From NCBI RefSeq assembly GCF_009931435.1, contig NZ_CP043414.1: a stretch of 64,000 nucleotides of DNA; one strand, 5' to 3'. The DNA is from Escherichia coli (GTDB lineage: Bacteria > Pseudomonadota > Gammaproteobacteria > Enterobacterales > Enterobacteriaceae). Both the position numbers and the translations under genes were made by a program. The notes under the pieces are model-generated. The model ran no database searches, was not told the DNA's origin, and was given only the letters and a program-made list of their open reading frames with translations. This document shows positions 13,282 through 18,930 of the stretch, in pieces. How positions within the stretch are numbered: position 1 is the first letter of the stretch; every line of letters starts with the position of its first letter.

Positions 13282-13880
13282 TCACCGGGCATACCCCCCC
13301 ATAAACGCCCATCACGCAACGCACGGCTCCGGTCGTGCGTTTTCATATCTGCCACCTGATTAATGCGTTCTGCGTGCCATTCTGGCGCTGTATGCGCACA
13401 CCGCGTAAACGGTGTGACGTAAAGCGTGAGGTGACGTAAACCGCGCTACCCCCTCCAACCCGCGGGTTTCGTGTCGAAACAGTTTTTCAGTTTTCTGCCG
13501 TGCAAAAATGACCGCCAGCCCGCGCAGCAACTGAGGGAAAAGCGAAGATCTGAAATTTCACGCTTTGAAATTTTTTGCAGTTTTCAAAGTGGTTTTTACG
13601 ATCGCACAAATGGCCGGAGCAATAAAACCGCATGATATTAAAAGAGTTTTCATACTTTACGCGAGACAAAAAAACGATCACGAAAGGATCGCATCAAACA
13701 GCCATCAAACAAAGAAGGCAGACACGGCGCGGCCTGCACAAAATTAAGCTCCAAAATAAAACTGAAAAAAAGGATCGCAACAAGAAGAAAAGCGCGTAAA
13801 ACGATCGCTGCTGATGTGGCGTTTCTTTATACAAGCTGCTATTTGCGATATGCTGAACACATCAACCTGTGGAGTGCATT

Positions 13881-14507
13881 ATGAAACGAAAATCAAAGTC
13901 TGCTGCCATTGCTGCTATTACTACAGCTCTGACAGCATCACTGGCTCCGGTGCCAGCTAAAAGCACGATACTACCAACAACAGTTATTGAATCCGCGACA
14001 CACGCCAGAGTGGTTTCAATGCTTACATTTGAGCATCATGATGGTCAGGTGTTTCTGCCTCTCGAAGAAGCTATTGAATATATCAACGGGCTGAATGACA
14101 ACATGCGCGCCGCGCTCAATGCAGTCATTGAAGAACGACAGAACAGAGGCAAGGGAGCACTGTTTACTGACAAAACCGCAAAAATCATAAAAATATGCGA
14201 AGAGTCAATTAAGCAGCACACCCGTGTTAAAGAGGCTGTCAAAATTGTAATGGATCCGGATAACCTGGCAAAAATGTATCCGGATAGCCTGGAGCAAAGA
14301 ATCGCCTATCGCAATAAACTGGTTCGTTTTGGTCGGGCAATTGCGCAGGGAGAGTTTATCGCTCGTGATGCCATCAACACCATCAAACGAAGCACCGCAC
14401 CAGACAAAACAACCAGCCTGGGCAATACGCTGTCTGACGGAAATGTGAAAGCAATGATTATTGCCGAGCATAAAAACATGGGACTCCCGGCACCGGAGTT
14501 TTCCTGA
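13881..14507 (+). CDS. hypothetical secreted protein (signal peptide)
   Basis: MKRKSKSAAIAAITTALTASLA-PVP has an n-region, h-region and A-x-A site; about 208 aa; stop overlaps the next ATG (TGATG). Confidence 0.5.
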   Translation: MKRKSKSAAIAAITTALTASLAPVPAKSTILPTTVIESATHARVVSMLTFEHHDGQVFLPLEEAIEYINGLNDNMRAALNAVIEERQNRGKGALFTDKTAKIIKICEESIKQHTRVKEAVKIVMDPDNLAKMYPDSLEQRIAYRNKLVRFGRAIAQGEFIARDAINTIKRSTAPDKTTSLGNTLSDGNVKAMIIAEHKNMGLPAPEFS

Positions 14508-14887
14508 TGGCAAGCAAAGTAAGCATTCATAAAGATGTTGAATACCAGGACATTGCAAAAGTTTACGGAAAGGCTCTGGAAAACTGGTTAAATACCGGTG
14601 TTCTCCCTGACAGATTCGGCAATGAAGGGCAGTGGGAAGATAACGCAAGATTATGTGGTTCGTTTGTATATAAATTACACATAAGACTACCGTCAGAACC
14701 ACCATGGAAGAAAAGCAAAGCCCAAATAGACAGAACTTCAAATATCTATCTGGTTTATACAAGGCACTGGATGGATTATGACAATATACAAATCATCAGC
14801 ATCATGGCCCCAGATGCTCACGAAAAAGCCAAAACTTCTTTCATGGCTGAACTGGAAAGACGGGCTGAAGAATTCCAGAACTCATAA
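14507..14887 (+). CDS. YafO-like toxin family protein
   Basis: 126 aa; GVLPDRFG, KLHIRL, IYLVYTRHW and a C-terminal AE..RRAEEF line up with E. coli YafO as recalled from memory (GVLPDTFG, HIHL, HLVY...). Confidence 0.5.
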   Translation: MASKVSIHKDVEYQDIAKVYGKALENWLNTGVLPDRFGNEGQWEDNARLCGSFVYKLHIRLPSEPPWKKSKAQIDRTSNIYLVYTRHWMDYDNIQIISIMAPDAHEKAKTSFMAELERRAEEFQNS

Positions 14888-14906: not shown

Positions 14907-14940
14907 GAAACCCGCAGCGTAAAAACTGTGGGTTTTCTTT
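14907..14940 (+). terminator. rho-independent terminator after the YafO-like gene
   Basis: gaaacccgcag...ctgtgggttt hairpin followed by TTTTTC. Confidence 0.5.
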
Positions 14941-15178
14941 TTGCTACCCTGATACGTGAGGGTAGCACTCAAAGTGAGGCAATATGTAGGCAACCTATTT
15001 AATACGTAAAAATTAATGCATTAAATGGATATTTACTAGCATGGGTACTGGCTTAAAATATCACAACCCTGTTTTATAACGTACTGAATTTATTAGGTGT
15101 GACGGTTTTCCAATGGGGCTTCCGACATTACGTTCAGCTGATGCTTTTCTTATGTAACGAGAAGACATATATTGGTAA

Positions 15179-15234
15179 GCGATGAAGCGATGAAGCGATG
15201 AAGCGATGAAGCGATGAAGCGATGAAGCGATGTA
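15179..15234. repeat. 8-bp tandem repeat (GCGATGAA) x6 plus one variant copy (GCGATGTA)
   Basis: Read directly: six perfect head-to-tail units then one variant, about 95 bp upstream of the ATPase gene start. Confidence 0.95.
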
Positions 15235-15251
15235 ACGTCTGTTTGGTTATA

Positions 15252-15296
15252 AACTTCACACTAATAATTTCTAAATGAAATTATTAGTGTGAAGTT
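15252..15296. promoter_or_regulatory. perfect 20-bp-arm inverted repeat (candidate operator or RNA hairpin) upstream of the ATPase gene
   Basis: aacttcacactaataatttc (15252-15271) / gaaattattagtgtgaagtt (15277-15296), 5-nt loop; 33 bp before the ATG at 15330. Confidence 0.6.
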
Positions 15297-15329
15297 GATG
15301 TTTATTGTGATTATAACTAAGGAATTAAA

Positions 15330-16799
15330 ATGAAATTATCTCCAGCAGAATTGAAGTTAGAAAGGGGTAAGGTTCAAGATAATAAATTCAATCAATATGT
15401 TAAACGTATCACATTAAAAAATGTCAGAGGGTTTGATGAGGAAATTGTGGAGTTTAAAACACCAGTTACAGCTCTTATCGGGACTAATGGTGGAGGGAAG
15501 TCGACTATATTAGGTGCTGTAGCTCTCGCTTATAAAAATGTTAAGCCAAGCAAGTTTTTCCCTAAATCATTTTATGGGGATGATTCAATGAGTGATTGGG
15601 AAATTGGATTCGAATTGATTGACAAGCCTATTTCAAAAGATAAAAATATTAACAGGACTGCAAAATTTAAACAGATGAAATGGCGCAGAGATAATTTCCC
15701 AGAGCGAAATGTTGTATATGTAGAAATACAAAGAACTGTTCCTGCAGGCGAACTAACTAAGTTTAATAAATTTTTATCTGGCGATGCTAAACAATTTGAA
15801 GAAAAAAATCTCAACCCTGAGACAATAAAATATTGCTCTGCCGTTTTAGATAAAAAGATAGAAGATTACAGATGTATAATAAATAAGCACGATCCATCTT
15901 CAAGAATGTTTGTAGGTAAGGCAATTAATGGTTCTGGTTATTCTCAGTTCCATTTTGGTGCAGGTGAAGCATCAATAATAGATACTATTGATAGAATAGA
16001 GACTGCTGCTGATAATTCTCTTGTTTTAATTGAAGAAATTGAAAATGGACTGCATCCTGTTGCAGTGCGGTTGTTTGTTAACTATTTGACAAATGTAGCA
16101 AAGAGGAAAAAGCTGCAAATAATATTTACAACACATTCGCAGGATGCAGTAAACGAGCTAGAGCCAGAAGCTGTTTGGGCTTCTATTAACAAAAAAGTAT
16201 GGAATGGTAAACTAAGTATTGAAAGTTTACGCGCTATAACGGGACAGAAGATAAATTCGAAAGTTATATATGTTGAAGATTCTTTTGCAAAAGAGTGGGT
16301 TGAAAATGCGATGGATCGATATATTCCAGAACTAGCCTCAACAATAAAAGTCTACACGGCAGGTGGTTACCCCAGCGTGGTTAAAGTAAGTCAATATCAT
16401 AATGAGAACCCTACTATAAATTATCCATCAATCGCATTAGTTGATGGGGATATTAAAGGTAGACCCGGAACTAAAGATCTGCCTGATAATGCAATGTTCA
16501 TCGGGGATGATTATCCTGACGCTACGGTTTTTCATTATATTGCAAATAACATAGAAGAAAATGCCTCAGTTTTGAGGCAAAGATGTTTGTTAACAAGATT
16601 TGACGCTGAAAAGATTAAATCGGAAGTTGAGAGTGTGATGCATTCTGCATGTGATCACCATGTTTATTTTACTAGATTAAGTGATAAATTAGATTTTGCC
16701 TCAGAACTATTCATTCGAGCTGGTATGATAGATTTATTTAATGAGAAAAATCCAGAATTTTGGTCCCCAATTATGGACTTCATTAAAAAAGGTCTATAG
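15330..16799 (+). CDS. ABC-type ATPase fused to a Toprim/DUF4435-like domain (OLD-family or fused-PARIS-like candidate defence nuclease)
   Basis: 489 aa; Walker A GTNGGGKST (K57), signature-like SGYSQFHFGAGEAS, Walker B LVLIEE (E235/E236), H-loop FTTHS; C-terminal VIYVED (E316) and ALVDGD (D372/D374) fit Toprim Glu and DxD; strongly AT-rich; own RBS and terminator. Confidence 0.6.
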   Translation: MKLSPAELKLERGKVQDNKFNQYVKRITLKNVRGFDEEIVEFKTPVTALIGTNGGGKSTILGAVALAYKNVKPSKFFPKSFYGDDSMSDWEIGFELIDKPISKDKNINRTAKFKQMKWRRDNFPERNVVYVEIQRTVPAGELTKFNKFLSGDAKQFEEKNLNPETIKYCSAVLDKKIEDYRCIINKHDPSSRMFVGKAINGSGYSQFHFGAGEASIIDTIDRIETAADNSLVLIEEIENGLHPVAVRLFVNYLTNVAKRKKLQIIFTTHSQDAVNELEPEAVWASINKKVWNGKLSIESLRAITGQKINSKVIYVEDSFAKEWVENAMDRYIPELASTIKVYTAGGYPSVVKVSQYHNENPTINYPSIALVDGDIKGRPGTKDLPDNAMFIGDDYPDATVFHYIANNIEENASVLRQRCLLTRFDAEKIKSEVESVMHSACDHHVYFTRLSDKLDFASELFIRAGMIDLFNEKNPEFWSPIMDFIKKGL

Positions 16800-16865
16800 T
16801 AATAATGCAAAAATATAATATTTAGTTTGCGATTTATATTTTTCATAATGAATTGTTGAGAAAAT

Positions 16866-16900
16866 AAGAGAGCATCGAAAATTGAGGCTCTCTTATTTTT
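16866..16900 (+). terminator. rho-independent terminator of the ATPase gene
   Basis: aagagagc (16866-16873) / gctctctt (16887-16894) stem followed by ATTTTT. Confidence 0.6.
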
Positions 16901-17082
16901 ATGAGATATCTCTAATGTATTAATCGTTTTATTTTGGTGCTACCACCACTGATGCTAACTTGTCGATCAGACATTCGCACTATTCAATATCTTTTAGGCT
17001 CCGCAATGAAAACGCCCCCGAAGGAACAATCCCCCGTCAATCGGTTGCCAAAGGCCATTTAGGTAAATCGCCTTCGAGGTCG

Positions 17083-17346
17083 TTCGATGGCTGCATGACG
17101 TTCCCGGTTATCCCGTCAAAGAAAATGCACTCGACCGGAAAACCAGAAGAACTAATGGCGGAGTTGGTCAGGACTGCGAATAGTGGCGGAACAGTCCTTG
17201 ATCCTTTTATGGGGCCAGGGACAACGGGTGTGGCTGCACTGAAAGCAGGGCGAAAATTTATTGGTATAGAGACCAGTGATCATTATTTTGAAGTAGCAGC
17301 ACAGCGACTTCGGGGGACTATTACCACAACCATTTCGACTACATAA
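17083..17346 (+). pseudogene. C-terminal fragment of a beta-class N6A/N4C DNA methyltransferase
   Basis: ...HSTGKPEELMAELVRTANSGGTVLDPFMGPGTTGVAALKAGRKFIGIETSDHYFEVAAQRL matches the AdoMet-binding FxGxG end of N6_N4 MTases; no DPPY-containing N-terminal part upstream. Confidence 0.6.
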
Positions 17347-17495: not shown

Positions 17496-17891
<396 letters not shown>

Positions 17892-18028
17892 TCAAAATGT
17901 GTGATGGAAATCTCATAATTTTGTCACTTTTTGTCAACGAATCTTTTTTGTGAGAAATCGCAGGAAGAGGTGTTTTTTTACTTGAGGAATATCTCAAAGC
18001 GAGCCATATTTGATGAGATCGATAGTGA

Positions 18029-18808
18029 CTAAATCGCTTCAGTTTCACAACTAACAGAATAAAAAAACGGCAGCTCAAGGCTGTAATGCCAGTCAGTTAA
18101 GCAACTGACTGGCTCTTTTTCGGGGCTGTGGGGTATTTCCAGGGCCTCTCCTTTACCACTCTCGGGAAGGCCCTTTCCCTTCTTGTCGGTAATTTCACTG
18201 GCTGTCCCATACTTGCAAGATCGCGCATCAGCTCCGGTATACGTCCCGGTGAAGCGCATGGCGTCCGTCATCGACGTCAGCAGATGGCTGGTCAGTTCCA
18301 TCTGGCAGACCATTTTGACCTGCGGGTAGAGCGCCGGGTTCCCGGCATGTGTCTGGCGGGGGAAGGCTGCATCGTTCTCTGGTGTATCCGGTGTGCGCCA
18401 GAACACACCATCGATGGCCAGCAGGGTCAGGCTGCACCAGTGCGGATGCAGCGTGGCGTTATGCCAGAGCTGCGCTGTTTTCGTGAACACGCGGCGGACA
18501 GCCTCACTTCCCAGGCGCTGGCGGGCCTGAATAACGGCACTGGGGGCAACGAAGGGGCGATTGCCCGGCAGCATGATGTCCAGGCGATTCACAATCTGGT
18601 GAAGAGGTTCTTTACGCTCAAGCGCCATGCCAACAATACACCAGACCATCATTTCGAGGGGAAGACGGCGCTTGCGTAGCGTTACAGTACCTGATTCGGC
18701 AAGGCAACGAGAGATGAGTTCGGGGTCGAGGTAATCCCCCAGAAAAGTCAGTGGGTTACGCAGAGAATCGTAACGGGATACCAAATCAAGGGCCTGTCCA
18801 ATGAGCAT
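18029..18808 (-). pseudogene. IS4 transposase (InsG-like), internal deletion with frameshifted C-terminus
   Basis: First about 178 aa (MLIGQALDLVSRYDSLRNPLTFLGDYLDPELISRCLAESG...QVKMVCQMELTSHLLT) match IS4 transposase as I recall it; then the frame jumps to out-of-frame 3'-end sequence. Confidence 0.65.
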
Positions 18809-18892
18809 AAAAAAATCCGGAAACGAGTGAGCGTTTCCGGATTCTTACACAGCCACTGAATCGGTCAACTGATCCTTAACTGATCGGCATTA
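18084..18892 (-). mobile_element. IS4, internally deleted copy with terminal inverted repeats and target-site duplication
   Basis: Ends TAATGCCAGTCAGTTAAG (18084-) and CTTAACTGATCGGCATTA (-18892); flanking direct repeat cagctcaagg(g)ctg at 18071-18083 and 18893-18906; about 0.8 kb versus about 1.4 kb for intact IS4 (from memory). Confidence 0.7.
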
Positions 18893-18930
18893 CAGCTCAA
18901 GGGCTGCCGTTTTTTTATTTCAATCTTCTG

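What the first reader, a model, noticed from the sequence alone, without database searches (positions are those of the whole stretch)
15252..15296. Perfect 20-bp-arm palindrome between the tandem repeat and the ATPase start codon
aacttcacactaataatttc / gaaattattagtgtgaagtt with a 5-nt loop is a perfect 45-bp dyad ending 33 bp before the ATG. It could be an operator for a dimeric repressor, a strong 5'-UTR hairpin that masks translation, or a terminator for upstream read-through. Together with the tandem repeat it suggests the gene is kept tightly silenced, as expected for a toxic defence effector.
Basis: seen in the sequence. Interest (0 to 1): 0.4.

Follow-up and report, generated by a model that had tools for sequence, protein, structure and literature searches.

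The report
Perfect palindrome upstream of a defence gene
A real, perfect 45-bp palindrome sits just upstream of a prophage-borne anti-phage nuclease gene (HEC-04) in a small E. coli lineage, but relatives of the gene lack it, so it looks like a recent replication-error product that at most dampens expression, not a conserved control switch.

Summary
Arms 15252-15271 and 15277-15296 are perfectly complementary, the loop is TAAAT, and the dyad ends 33 nt before the ATG at 15330. It is the longest and cleanest inverted repeat in the 64-kb window. As RNA it folds at -27 kcal/mol (z about -12).

The gene is HEC-04, a published single-protein ABC-ATPase/TOPRIM defence system that is toxic when induced.

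The dyad is not a conserved regulator:
- It is single-copy and found only with the near-identical E. coli allele (16 of 5,426 complete genomes).
- It is absent from the 93%-identical Salmonella-type allele, whose leader is homologous and about the same length.
- It is absent from 20 further homologue loci.

Only two variants appear in about 28 carrier loci. One breaks a pair. The other converts the single mismatch of the 23-bp extended arms into a match, as quasi-palindrome template switching would.

The ribosome-binding site and AUG lie outside the hairpin in unusually unstructured RNA, so translation masking is not supported. The U-tail is weak. No regulator or second half-site was found. 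Promoter-like hexamers lie inside the dyad.

Best reading: a lineage-specific perfected quasi-palindrome, possibly acting as a leaky transcription barrier or RNase III site. Interest is low.

The parts
15252..15271 (+). Left arm of the perfect dyad (AACTTCACACTAATAATTTC). Contains a -35-like TTCACA at 15255-15260.
15272..15276 (+). 5-nt non-palindromic centre or loop, TAAAT. T15276/G15277 supply a TG in front of the -10-like hexamer. ATG 15275-15277 opens a 5-codon mini-ORF (MKLLV*) that has no SD.
   Evidence: read directly from the sequence
15277..15296 (+). Right arm (GAAATTATTAGTGTGAAGTT). Contains a -10-like AATTAT at 15279-15284. 70% identical to the aligned Salmonella-type leader.
15249..15299 (.). 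Extended quasi-palindrome: 23-bp arms with one mismatch (A15251/G15297). Strain A_5 carries G15297T, which makes the 23-bp arms perfect. Strain CP057946.1 carries T15256C, which breaks one pair.
15297..15329 (+). 33-nt spacer to the ATG. It has a weak U-rich tail (GATGTTTATTGTG) and the SD AAGGA at 15319-15323. Predicted unstructured as RNA.
15330..16799 (+). HEC-04 defence gene, an ABC-ATPase fused to TOPRIM, 489 aa. Walker A K57 and TOPRIM acidic residues E316, D372 and D374 are conserved.
15177..15232 (+). Hypervariable 8-bp tandem repeat (AAGCGATG) x 7. It has 5-16 units in other carriers and is absent from the Salmonella-type leader.
15058..15113 (+). Remnant (ATCACAAC ... GGTGTGACGGTTTTCC) of a repeat-rich phage segment that borders the cargo slot. 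The HEC-04-specific leader begins after it.
14907..14936 (+). Canonical intrinsic terminator after yafO (stop at 14887). It already insulates the cassette in this context.
16861..16899 (.). 16-bp-arm hairpin downstream of the HEC-04 stop codon, a probable terminator of the cassette.

Best explanation
The dyad is a lineage-specific, 'perfected' quasi-palindrome in the AT-rich leader of a prophage-borne HEC-04 defence gene.

**Origin (inferred).** Intrastrand template switching during replication copied one arm from the other within a pre-existing, homologous, non-palindromic leader. That leader already carried a small hairpin at the same centre. The process is still visible in natural isolates.

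**Status (shown).** It is not a conserved regulatory element of the gene family and it does not occlude the ribosome-binding site.

**Function (inferred, weak).** If the dyad is transcribed from upstream, the 20-23-bp AU-rich RNA hairpin followed by GAUGUUUAUU would act as a leaky transcription barrier. Being two helical turns of perfect duplex, it would also be a likely RNase III substrate. Both effects would lower read-through expression of a protein that is toxic when over-made. The gene's own transcripts may start from the promoter-like TTCACA-18-TGaAATTAT that lies inside the dyad. Those transcripts would lack the hairpin.
For: **Shown**
- The dyad is single-copy and restricted to the near-identical E. 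coli allele: 16 of 5,426 complete genomes and one IMG/VR contig. There is no match in the plasmid collection and no phage match that covers the dyad.
- The Salmonella-type allele (93% amino-acid identity) has a homologous leader of nearly the same length (94 vs 95-96 nt) with no dyad. The palindrome therefore arose in place, not by insertion.
- Identity to L003 is 79% before the dyad, 45% in the left arm, 70% in the right arm and 73% after it. This suggests the left arm was overwritten (Fisher p = 0.03).
- L002 and L003 carry a 7-bp hairpin (UAGUAYC...GGUAUUA) at the same centre, which could nucleate a template switch.
- Of only two substitutions seen in 15249-15299 across about 28 carrier loci, one (G15297T, strain A_5) converts the single mismatch of the 23-bp arms into a match. 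Only 2 of 153 possible substitutions would do this.
- Quasi-palindromes in E. coli are template-switch hotspots that become 'perfect or more perfect' (PMC7202029).
- The same leader carries two other misalignment-type changes: a hypervariable 8-bp repeat and a deletion between direct repeats.
- The hairpin persists when the whole leader is folded. The translation initiation region is open.
- The dyad passes the simple terminator scan, and promoter-like hexamers with a TG lie inside it.
- HEC-04 is toxic on induction.
Against: - The left/right arm asymmetry is weak: p = 0.03 against L003 but 0.44 against L002.
- The carriers differ by only about 0.3% across the cassette. Invariance of the dyad therefore says nothing for or against selection, and a selected function cannot be excluded.
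- One natural variant (T15256C) breaks a pair, which fits neutrality as well as anything.
- The terminator reading is marginal. The tail score of -2.31 for the 20-bp stem fails the usual -2.5 cut-off, and the stem base is AU-rich.
- A good terminator already lies upstream in this window.
- Promoter predictions in AT-rich DNA are no better than shuffles: 4 found against 2.5 expected.
- No transcription start or RNA 3' end data were available.
Confidence: 0.45

Rival explanations
1. Neutral mutational scar. The palindrome is purely a product of template switching, has no effect on expression, and hitch-hikes with a recently spread cassette.
For: - It is absent from all other alleles and homologues.
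- Carrier cassettes differ by only about 0.3%.
- One isolate carries a pair-breaking substitution.
- The neighbouring 8-bp repeat is hypervariable, which shows relaxed constraint in this leader.
Against: A -27 kcal/mol hairpin, or a 45-bp dyad overlapping promoter-like hexamers 33 nt from a start codon, is unlikely to have no effect at all on transcription or RNA processing (inference). The allele is common: the exact protein is on record in 551 and 749 blocks of the public-assembly collection.
Confidence: 0.3
2. Promoter-embedded dyad. The HEC-04 promoter is TTCACA (15255-15260), an 18-nt spacer, then TGaAATTAT (15276-15284), starting transcription near 15291. Copying TGTGAA as TTCACA created the -35 element. 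The mRNA would carry no hairpin, and the symmetry would be incidental or would allow supercoiling-dependent cruciform extrusion.
For: - The best proximal sigma-70 match on the + strand lies inside the dyad, with a TG extension that only the + strand has.
- The resulting 39-nt leader is unstructured and has a good SD.
- The Salmonella-type leader has its best promoter-like sites in the aligned region.
Against: - The hexamers match only 9 of 12 positions and the 18-nt spacer is suboptimal.
- The number of such matches is not above the shuffle expectation.
- The same hexamers occur on the - strand by symmetry.
- There is no experimental start site.
Confidence: 0.15
3. Operator for a dimeric DNA-binding repressor (phage- or host-encoded) that keeps the toxic gene off.
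For: The dyad has perfect two-fold symmetry and overlaps the promoter-like hexamers close to the start codon. The gene product is toxic.
Against: - No regulator gene is common to the three contexts that carry the dyad. The upstream neighbours are yafO; ogr and hok; or com and a methyltransferase.
- No additional half-sites occur in the window above chance.
- The dyad is absent from close and distant homologues.
- The arms are far longer than known operator half-sites (general knowledge).
- The TGTGA/TCACA motifs are in the wrong order and spacing for a CRP site (read from the sequence).
Confidence: 0.07
4. ToxIN-like (type III toxin-antitoxin) architecture: promoter, tandem RNA repeats, terminator, toxic gene. 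In this reading the dyad sets the ratio of repeat RNA to toxin mRNA.
For: The order of elements is the same: the tandem repeat at 15177-15232, then the hairpin with a weak U-tail, then a toxic gene.
Against: - The repeat unit is 8 nt, against about 36 nt in ToxI. It varies from 5 to 16 copies and is missing from the Salmonella-type allele.
- The protein is an ABC-ATPase/TOPRIM nuclease, not a ToxN/AbiQ endoribonuclease.
- Rfam has no match.
Confidence: 0.03

Closest known systems
Quasi-palindrome template-switch mutational hotspots in E. coli (Ripley model; thyA and lacZ QP reporters, Lovett laboratory; PMC7202029)
   Same: An imperfect inverted repeat becomes perfect or more perfect through clustered changes in one arm. 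Here a natural isolate (A_5) shows exactly such a perfecting substitution at the only mismatch of the 23-bp arms, and the left arm is the more divergent one.
   Different: Those hotspots were defined by reporter reversion in the laboratory. Here the event is inferred from comparison of natural alleles. No rate was measured and the directional signal is statistically weak.
Rho-independent terminators and leader attenuators
   Same: A stem-loop followed by a U-containing tract between an upstream region and a gene. The dyad passes a simple terminator scan.
   Different: The stem is 20-23 bp and AU-rich (5 G-C pairs), where typical terminators have a short GC-rich stem. The U-tract is interrupted (GAUGUUUAUU), and the tail score is below the usual cut-off for the 20-bp stem.
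RNase III processing stems in 5' leaders (for example the rnc and pnp leaders, lambda N leader, T7 early mRNAs; from general knowledge)
   Same: About two helical turns of uninterrupted double-stranded RNA in a leader.
   Different: Cleavage was not tested. Whether the dyad is transcribed at all is unknown.
ToxIN type III toxin-antitoxin loci
   Same: The order is tandem repeats, then a hairpin or terminator, then a toxic abortive-infection gene.
   Different: The repeats are 8 nt, not 36 nt, they are hypervariable and dispensable, and the toxin family is unrelated.
HEC-04 / IbfA-like ABC-ATPase-TOPRIM single-gene defence (bioRxiv 10.1101/2024.01.29.577857; PMC12111858)
   Same: The downstream gene matches the HEC-04 profile end to end and keeps the Walker A lysine and the TOPRIM acidic residues shown there to be essential.
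   Different: Those papers describe no leader palindrome. The dyad is peculiar to one E. coli allele.

Membership tests
HEC-04 (the gene downstream of the dyad) | Full-length match to the PADLOC HEC-04 profile | tested here: met
   E = 6e-204, residues 2-488 against profile positions 5-488 of 494.
HEC-04 (the gene downstream of the dyad) | Walker A lysine and the TOPRIM metal-binding E...DxD that are needed for defence (K62, E319, D375, D377 in the published protein) | tested here: met
   K57, E316, D372 and D374 are present and invariant in 22 homologues. The published mutants are described.
Quasi-palindrome template-switch site | An imperfect inverted repeat whose natural variants increase complementarity | tested here: met
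   G15297T in strain A_5 turns the A/G mismatch of the 23-bp arms into A-T. Mechanism as described in PMC7202029.
Quasi-palindrome template-switch site | One arm carries clustered changes relative to the outgroup while the other keeps background similarity | tested here: inconclusive
   Left arm 45% against right arm 70% identity to L003 (left arm against the rest of the leader, p = 0.03). Against L002 the values are 55% and 65% (p = 0.44).
Intrinsic (Rho-independent) terminator | A stable stem-loop directly followed by a U-rich tract | tested here: inconclusive
   It passes the simple scan. The TransTermHP-style tail score is -2.31 for the 20-bp stem and -3.24 for the 23-bp stem, against -3.44 for the yafO terminator. 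Only 5 of 20 pairs are G-C.
Translation-masking 5'-UTR hairpin | The SD and/or start codon are sequestered in the structure | tested here: not met
   SD 15319-15323 and AUG 15330 lie outside the stem. The RNA from 15291 to 15365 folds at -3.9 kcal/mol, z = +1.8.
Repressor operator | A cognate regulator encoded nearby or shared by all carriers, and recurrence of the half-site | tested here: not met
   The three contexts share no regulator. Half-site matches in the window (3) are no more than in shuffles (1-5). Protein binding itself cannot be tested here.
Conserved cis-regulatory element of HEC-04 genes | Presence of a dyad or strong hairpin in the leaders of homologues | tested here: not met
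   There is no perfect inverted repeat of 8 bp or more within about 115 nt of the start codon at any homologue locus lacking the E. coli-type allele. Folding shows no unusually stable (z below -3) 55-nt leader segment within about 80 nt of the start codon in 20 loci. No hit in Rfam.
Type III toxin-antitoxin (ToxIN-like) | Repeats of about 36 nt of antitoxin RNA and a ToxN/AbiQ-family endoribonuclease | tested here: not met
   The unit is 8 nt with 5-16 copies. The protein is an ABC-ATPase/TOPRIM.
REP / MITE / other dispersed palindromic element | Many copies per genome | tested here: not met
   There is one locus per carrier genome (both strands of the same palindrome) and none in the other 5,410 E. 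coli genomes.
RNase III substrate | About 20 bp or more of uninterrupted double-stranded RNA | not testable with these tools
   The sequence would give 20 perfect pairs (23 in A_5) if transcribed. Neither transcription nor cleavage was measured.

The most novel reading that the evidence does not exclude
The hypervariable 8-bp repeat (5-16 copies) and the perfect dyad together form a contingency switch. In this reading the prophage tunes or phase-varies expression of a toxic HEC-04 nuclease. The dyad would serve as the promoter/cruciform or RNA-processing element, and repeat length would set the input. The 12-nt copy of the true start region (AAATGAAATTAT) in the loop and right arm would act as a decoy or autoregulatory site.
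Probability: 0.07. Interest if true: 0.55.

Novelty: new member of a known kind. Interest (0 to 1): 0.2.

Why it matters
If the reading is right, the finding is mostly a caution. A statistically striking perfect palindrome next to a toxic defence gene need not be a designed switch. It can be a young by-product of misalignment mutagenesis in an unconstrained AT-rich leader.

It has some modest value:
- It is a natural example of quasi-palindrome perfection caught in progress, with three states among isolates: 20-bp arms, 23-bp arms, and arms broken by one substitution.
- It offers an allelic series for testing how leader structure affects expression and toxicity of HEC-04: Salmonella-type without the dyad, E. 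coli-type with it, and repeat lengths of 5-16 units.

Tried and rejected
- **Rfam at permissive E-values:** only meaningless miRNA-type hairpin hits far below gathering scores.
- **Same dyad elsewhere:** only the HEC-04 locus in 16 E. coli genomes and one IMG/VR contig. There was no plasmid match, no phage match covering the dyad, and nothing new in one metagenome scan.
- **Covariation analysis:** impossible, because carriers are almost identical.
- **Family-wide leader hairpin:** not found.
- **Intermediate alleles between the E. coli type and the Salmonella type:** none in the 90% cluster.
- **Operator regulon:** no extra half-sites.
- **CRP site:** the TCACA...TGTGA motifs are in the wrong order and 27 nt apart (read from the sequence).
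- **Translation masking:** rejected.
- **ToxIN-like system:** rejected on unit length, variability and toxin family.
- **Mobile-element end or insertion:** rejected, because the leader length is unchanged relative to the Salmonella type and the dyad is single-copy.
- **Protelomerase telomere-resolution site:** considered because the tail genes loosely recall telomere phages. Rejected because the centre (TAAAT) is not symmetric and the prophage is integrated next to raiA.
- **Mini-ORF MKLLV* starting in the loop:** no SD, so not pursued.
- **Promoter placement by consensus scanning:** inconclusive, because hits are no more frequent than in shuffles.

Full report
**1. Observation**

The sequence at 15252-15296 is AACTTCACACTAATAATTTC-TAAAT-GAAATTATTAGTGTGAAGTT, with 20 perfectly complementary positions on each side of a 5-nt centre. 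The repeat finder extends it to 23-nt arms (15249-15271 and 15277-15299) with one mismatch, A15251 opposite G15297. The ORF downstream starts at ATG 15330, so the dyad ends 33 nt before it.

The arm, even with three mismatches allowed, occurs nowhere else in the 64 kb, and zero matches are expected from shuffles. It is the longest and most perfect of 31 inverted repeats in the window. As RNA it folds at -27.0 kcal/mol (z = -11.9). As single-stranded DNA it folds at -19.4 kcal/mol (z = -11).

**2. Surroundings**

The window is E. coli chromosome. Positions up to about 17.3 kb are the right end of a myovirus-type prophage inserted beside raiA-bamD-rluD-clpB. The features in order are:

- The yafO-family toxin gene (14507-14887).
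- A canonical intrinsic terminator (14907-14936).
- A roughly 55-nt remnant of a repeat-rich phage segment (15058-15113).
- A tandem repeat, (AAGCGATG)x7 (15177-15232).
- The dyad.
- An SD (AAGGA, 15319-15323).
- The 489-aa ORF (15330-16799).
- A 16-bp-arm hairpin (16861-16899).
- A 3' fragment of a DNA methyltransferase gene.
- raiA.

The ORF matches the PADLOC HEC-04 profile end to end (E = 6e-204). It has Pfam AAA_15 and AAA_21 domains. It keeps the Walker A lysine and the TOPRIM acidic residues (K57, E316, D372, D374), which are invariant in 22 homologues.

HEC-04 is a published single-protein ABC-ATPase/TOPRIM defence. It is active against T4 and T5, depends on those residues, and is toxic enough that IPTG was omitted (bioRxiv 10.1101/2024.01.29.577857). 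IbfA is a homologue (PMC12111858).

**3. Distribution of the dyad**

The intergenic region is present in 16-17 of 5,426 complete E. coli genomes, always on the chromosome. A 92-nt query spanning the dyad hits only those 16 genomes, once each; the two 'places' per genome are the two strands of the palindrome. An exact-pattern scan of IMG/VR finds one contig. The plasmid collection holds no match to the region, and the only phage match, outside the dyad, is described in section 8.

Carriers fall into three contexts that share no regulator:

- The window type, with yafO upstream.
- A P2-like remnant with ogr and hok upstream.
- A P2-like remnant with ogr, hok, TM2, com and a methyltransferase upstream.

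Across these contexts the cassette differs by only about 0.3%. Identity of the dyad among them therefore carries no information about selection.

**4. Relatives without the dyad**

The closest other allele is 93% identical at the amino-acid level. It is Salmonella-type and is represented by L002-L005 and the metagenome contig L032. Its leader aligns with the window and has almost the same length from TCTGTT to the ATG (94 vs 95-96 nt), but it has no dyad and no tandem repeat. The palindrome therefore arose in place, not by insertion of an element.

Three enterobacterial homologues at 76-78% identity (L024, L026, L027) and 16 distant loci (L008-L023) show nothing comparable. None has a perfect inverted repeat of 8 bp or more within about 115 nt of the start codon. 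None has an unusually stable (z below -3) 55-nt leader segment within about 80 nt of it. The window's z is -8.4. The only other outliers, L011 and L014, lie 83 nt or more upstream. Rfam has nothing. The dyad is thus not a conserved cis-element of HEC-04 genes.

**5. How it probably arose**

Against L003, identity is 79% just before the dyad, 45% in the left arm, 60% in the loop, 70% in the right arm and 73% after it. The right arm looks like ordinary diverged leader and the left arm looks overwritten. For left arm against the rest, Fisher p is 0.03. The same comparison with L002 is not significant, at p = 0.44.

L002 and L003 carry a 7-bp hairpin (UAGUAYC N4-5 GGUAUUA, with G·U pairs) at the same centre. 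This could prime an intrastrand template switch.

Among about 28 E. coli-type loci the tandem repeat ranges from 5 to 16 units, while 15249-15299 shows only two substitutions:

- T15256C (CP057946.1) breaks one pair.
- G15297T (strain A_5) converts the single mismatch of the 23-bp arms into an A-T pair. Only 2 of 153 possible substitutions in that stretch would have this effect.

That is the signature of quasi-palindrome-associated template-switch mutation, which in E. coli makes imperfect inverted repeats 'perfect or more perfect' (PMC7202029).

The same leader also shows a hypervariable short tandem repeat. It apparently also has a deletion between direct TGTGAYGGTT copies relative to the Salmonella type. 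Both are misalignment-type events, consistent with a weakly constrained, slippage-prone region.

**6. What it could do**

*Translation masking: rejected.* The SD and AUG lie outside the stem. The RNA from 15291 to 15365 folds at only -3.9 kcal/mol and is less structured than 199 of 200 shuffles. The 20-bp hairpin itself is robust in the context of the whole leader.

*Terminator: marginal.* The simple scan accepts it, with 20 pairs, 5 of them G-C, and the tail GATGTTTATT. A TransTermHP-style tail score is -2.31 for the 20-bp stem and -3.24 if the 23-bp stem is counted. The yafO terminator scores -3.44. There is no terminator-like tail on the minus strand.

*Promoter.* The best proximal sigma-70-like match on the + strand lies inside the dyad: TTCACA (15255-15260), 18 nt, then AATTAT (15279-15284) preceded by TG from the loop. 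It predicts a start near 15291 and a 39-nt open leader. However, such matches are no more frequent than in shuffles. The Salmonella-type leader has its best matches at a different register.

*Operator: unsupported.* The contexts share no regulator. The window holds no extra half-sites beyond chance, with 3 found against 1-5 in shuffles. The arms are much longer than known half-sites.

*ToxIN-like reading: rejected.* The architecture is repeats, then a terminator, then a toxin. It fails because the unit is 8 nt, is hypervariable and dispensable, and the protein is not a ToxN-type RNase.

**7. Verdict**

The best-supported account is a lineage-specific, recently perfected quasi-palindrome in the HEC-04 leader. 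Any function is accessory. Most plausibly it is a leaky transcription barrier and/or an RNase III-sensitive stem for read-through transcripts. The gene's own promoter possibly overlaps the dyad. A purely neutral scar is nearly as likely. Nothing supports a dedicated repressor-operator or a translational lock.

The finding is real but ordinary in kind. Its modest interest lies in being a natural example of palindrome perfection in progress, and in the allelic series it offers for testing leader effects on a toxic defence gene.

**8. Seen in passing**

- The repeat-rich segment is bounded by 16-bp terminal inverted repeats in the Salmonella-type loci. It borders a cargo slot next to the prophage end, which holds HEC-04 in some genomes and an acyltransferase in others. 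Part of it also occurs in the P2-like phage ESSI2_ev239 near int.
- In one context the HEC-04 cassette lies between a full-length com-methyltransferase pair and a 3' methyltransferase fragment of about 255 nt that is 90% identical to it.
- A 12-nt direct repeat, AAATGAAATTAT, links the loop and right arm to the true start region.

Noticed in passing
window 15177-15232: The 8-bp tandem repeat AAGCGATG is hypervariable, with 5 to 16 units among about 28 E. coli loci carrying the same cassette. Variant units are AAGAGATG in strain A2 and AAACGATG in strain A_5. It is absent from the 93%-identical Salmonella-type leader. All three + strand frames hit TGA within the repeat, so it is non-coding on that strand.
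   Followed up: partly
L003 2543-2823; remnant in window 15058-15113: A segment of about 280 bp is bounded by perfect 16-bp terminal inverted repeats (CGGAAAACCGTCACAA / TTGTGACGGTTTTCCG) and packed with TGTGAYGG / ATCACA copies. It borders a cargo slot at the prophage end next to raiA. Other E. coli genomes carry an acyltransferase there (L053). Part of it also occurs in the Peduoviridae phage ESSI2_ev239 beside O-acetyltransferase and int (L036). Its function is unknown; integrase arm sites, iterons or a MITE-like element are possibilities.
   Followed up: partly
window 17050-17303; L034 6037-6970 and 9131-9430: The methyltransferase fragment downstream of HEC-04 is 90% identical over about 255 nt to the 3' end, terminator included, of a full-length com-linked methyltransferase. 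In one context that full-length gene lies immediately upstream of the cassette. The cassette is therefore flanked by direct repeats of methyltransferase 3' sequence.
   Followed up: partly
window 15273-15284 and 15328-15339: An exact 12-nt direct repeat, AAATGAAATTAT, is shared by the dyad's loop and right arm and by the true start-codon region. The upstream copy opens a 5-codon ORF (MKLLV*) with no SD. By rough estimate the chance of this is about 1-2%. Its significance is unknown.
   Followed up: no
window 17838-18930: About 820 bp more lie between raiA (17496-17837, minus strand) and bamD than in strain ETEC1717. The extra sequence contains an ORF with an IS4 transposase N-terminal domain (18029-18808, minus strand).
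   Followed up: no
window 13869-14887: A 212-aa ORF overlaps the start of the yafO-family toxin gene, as an antitoxin partner would. It has no Pfam hit, and RefSeq labels it 'SufA', which looks like a misannotation.
   Followed up: no
L027 (GCA_033363735.1): A 78%-identical HEC-04 gene sits between gpA and the portal gene of a P2-like phage. This corresponds to the old/tin position of P2 (from general knowledge). The gene therefore moves between different prophage cargo slots.
   Followed up: partly
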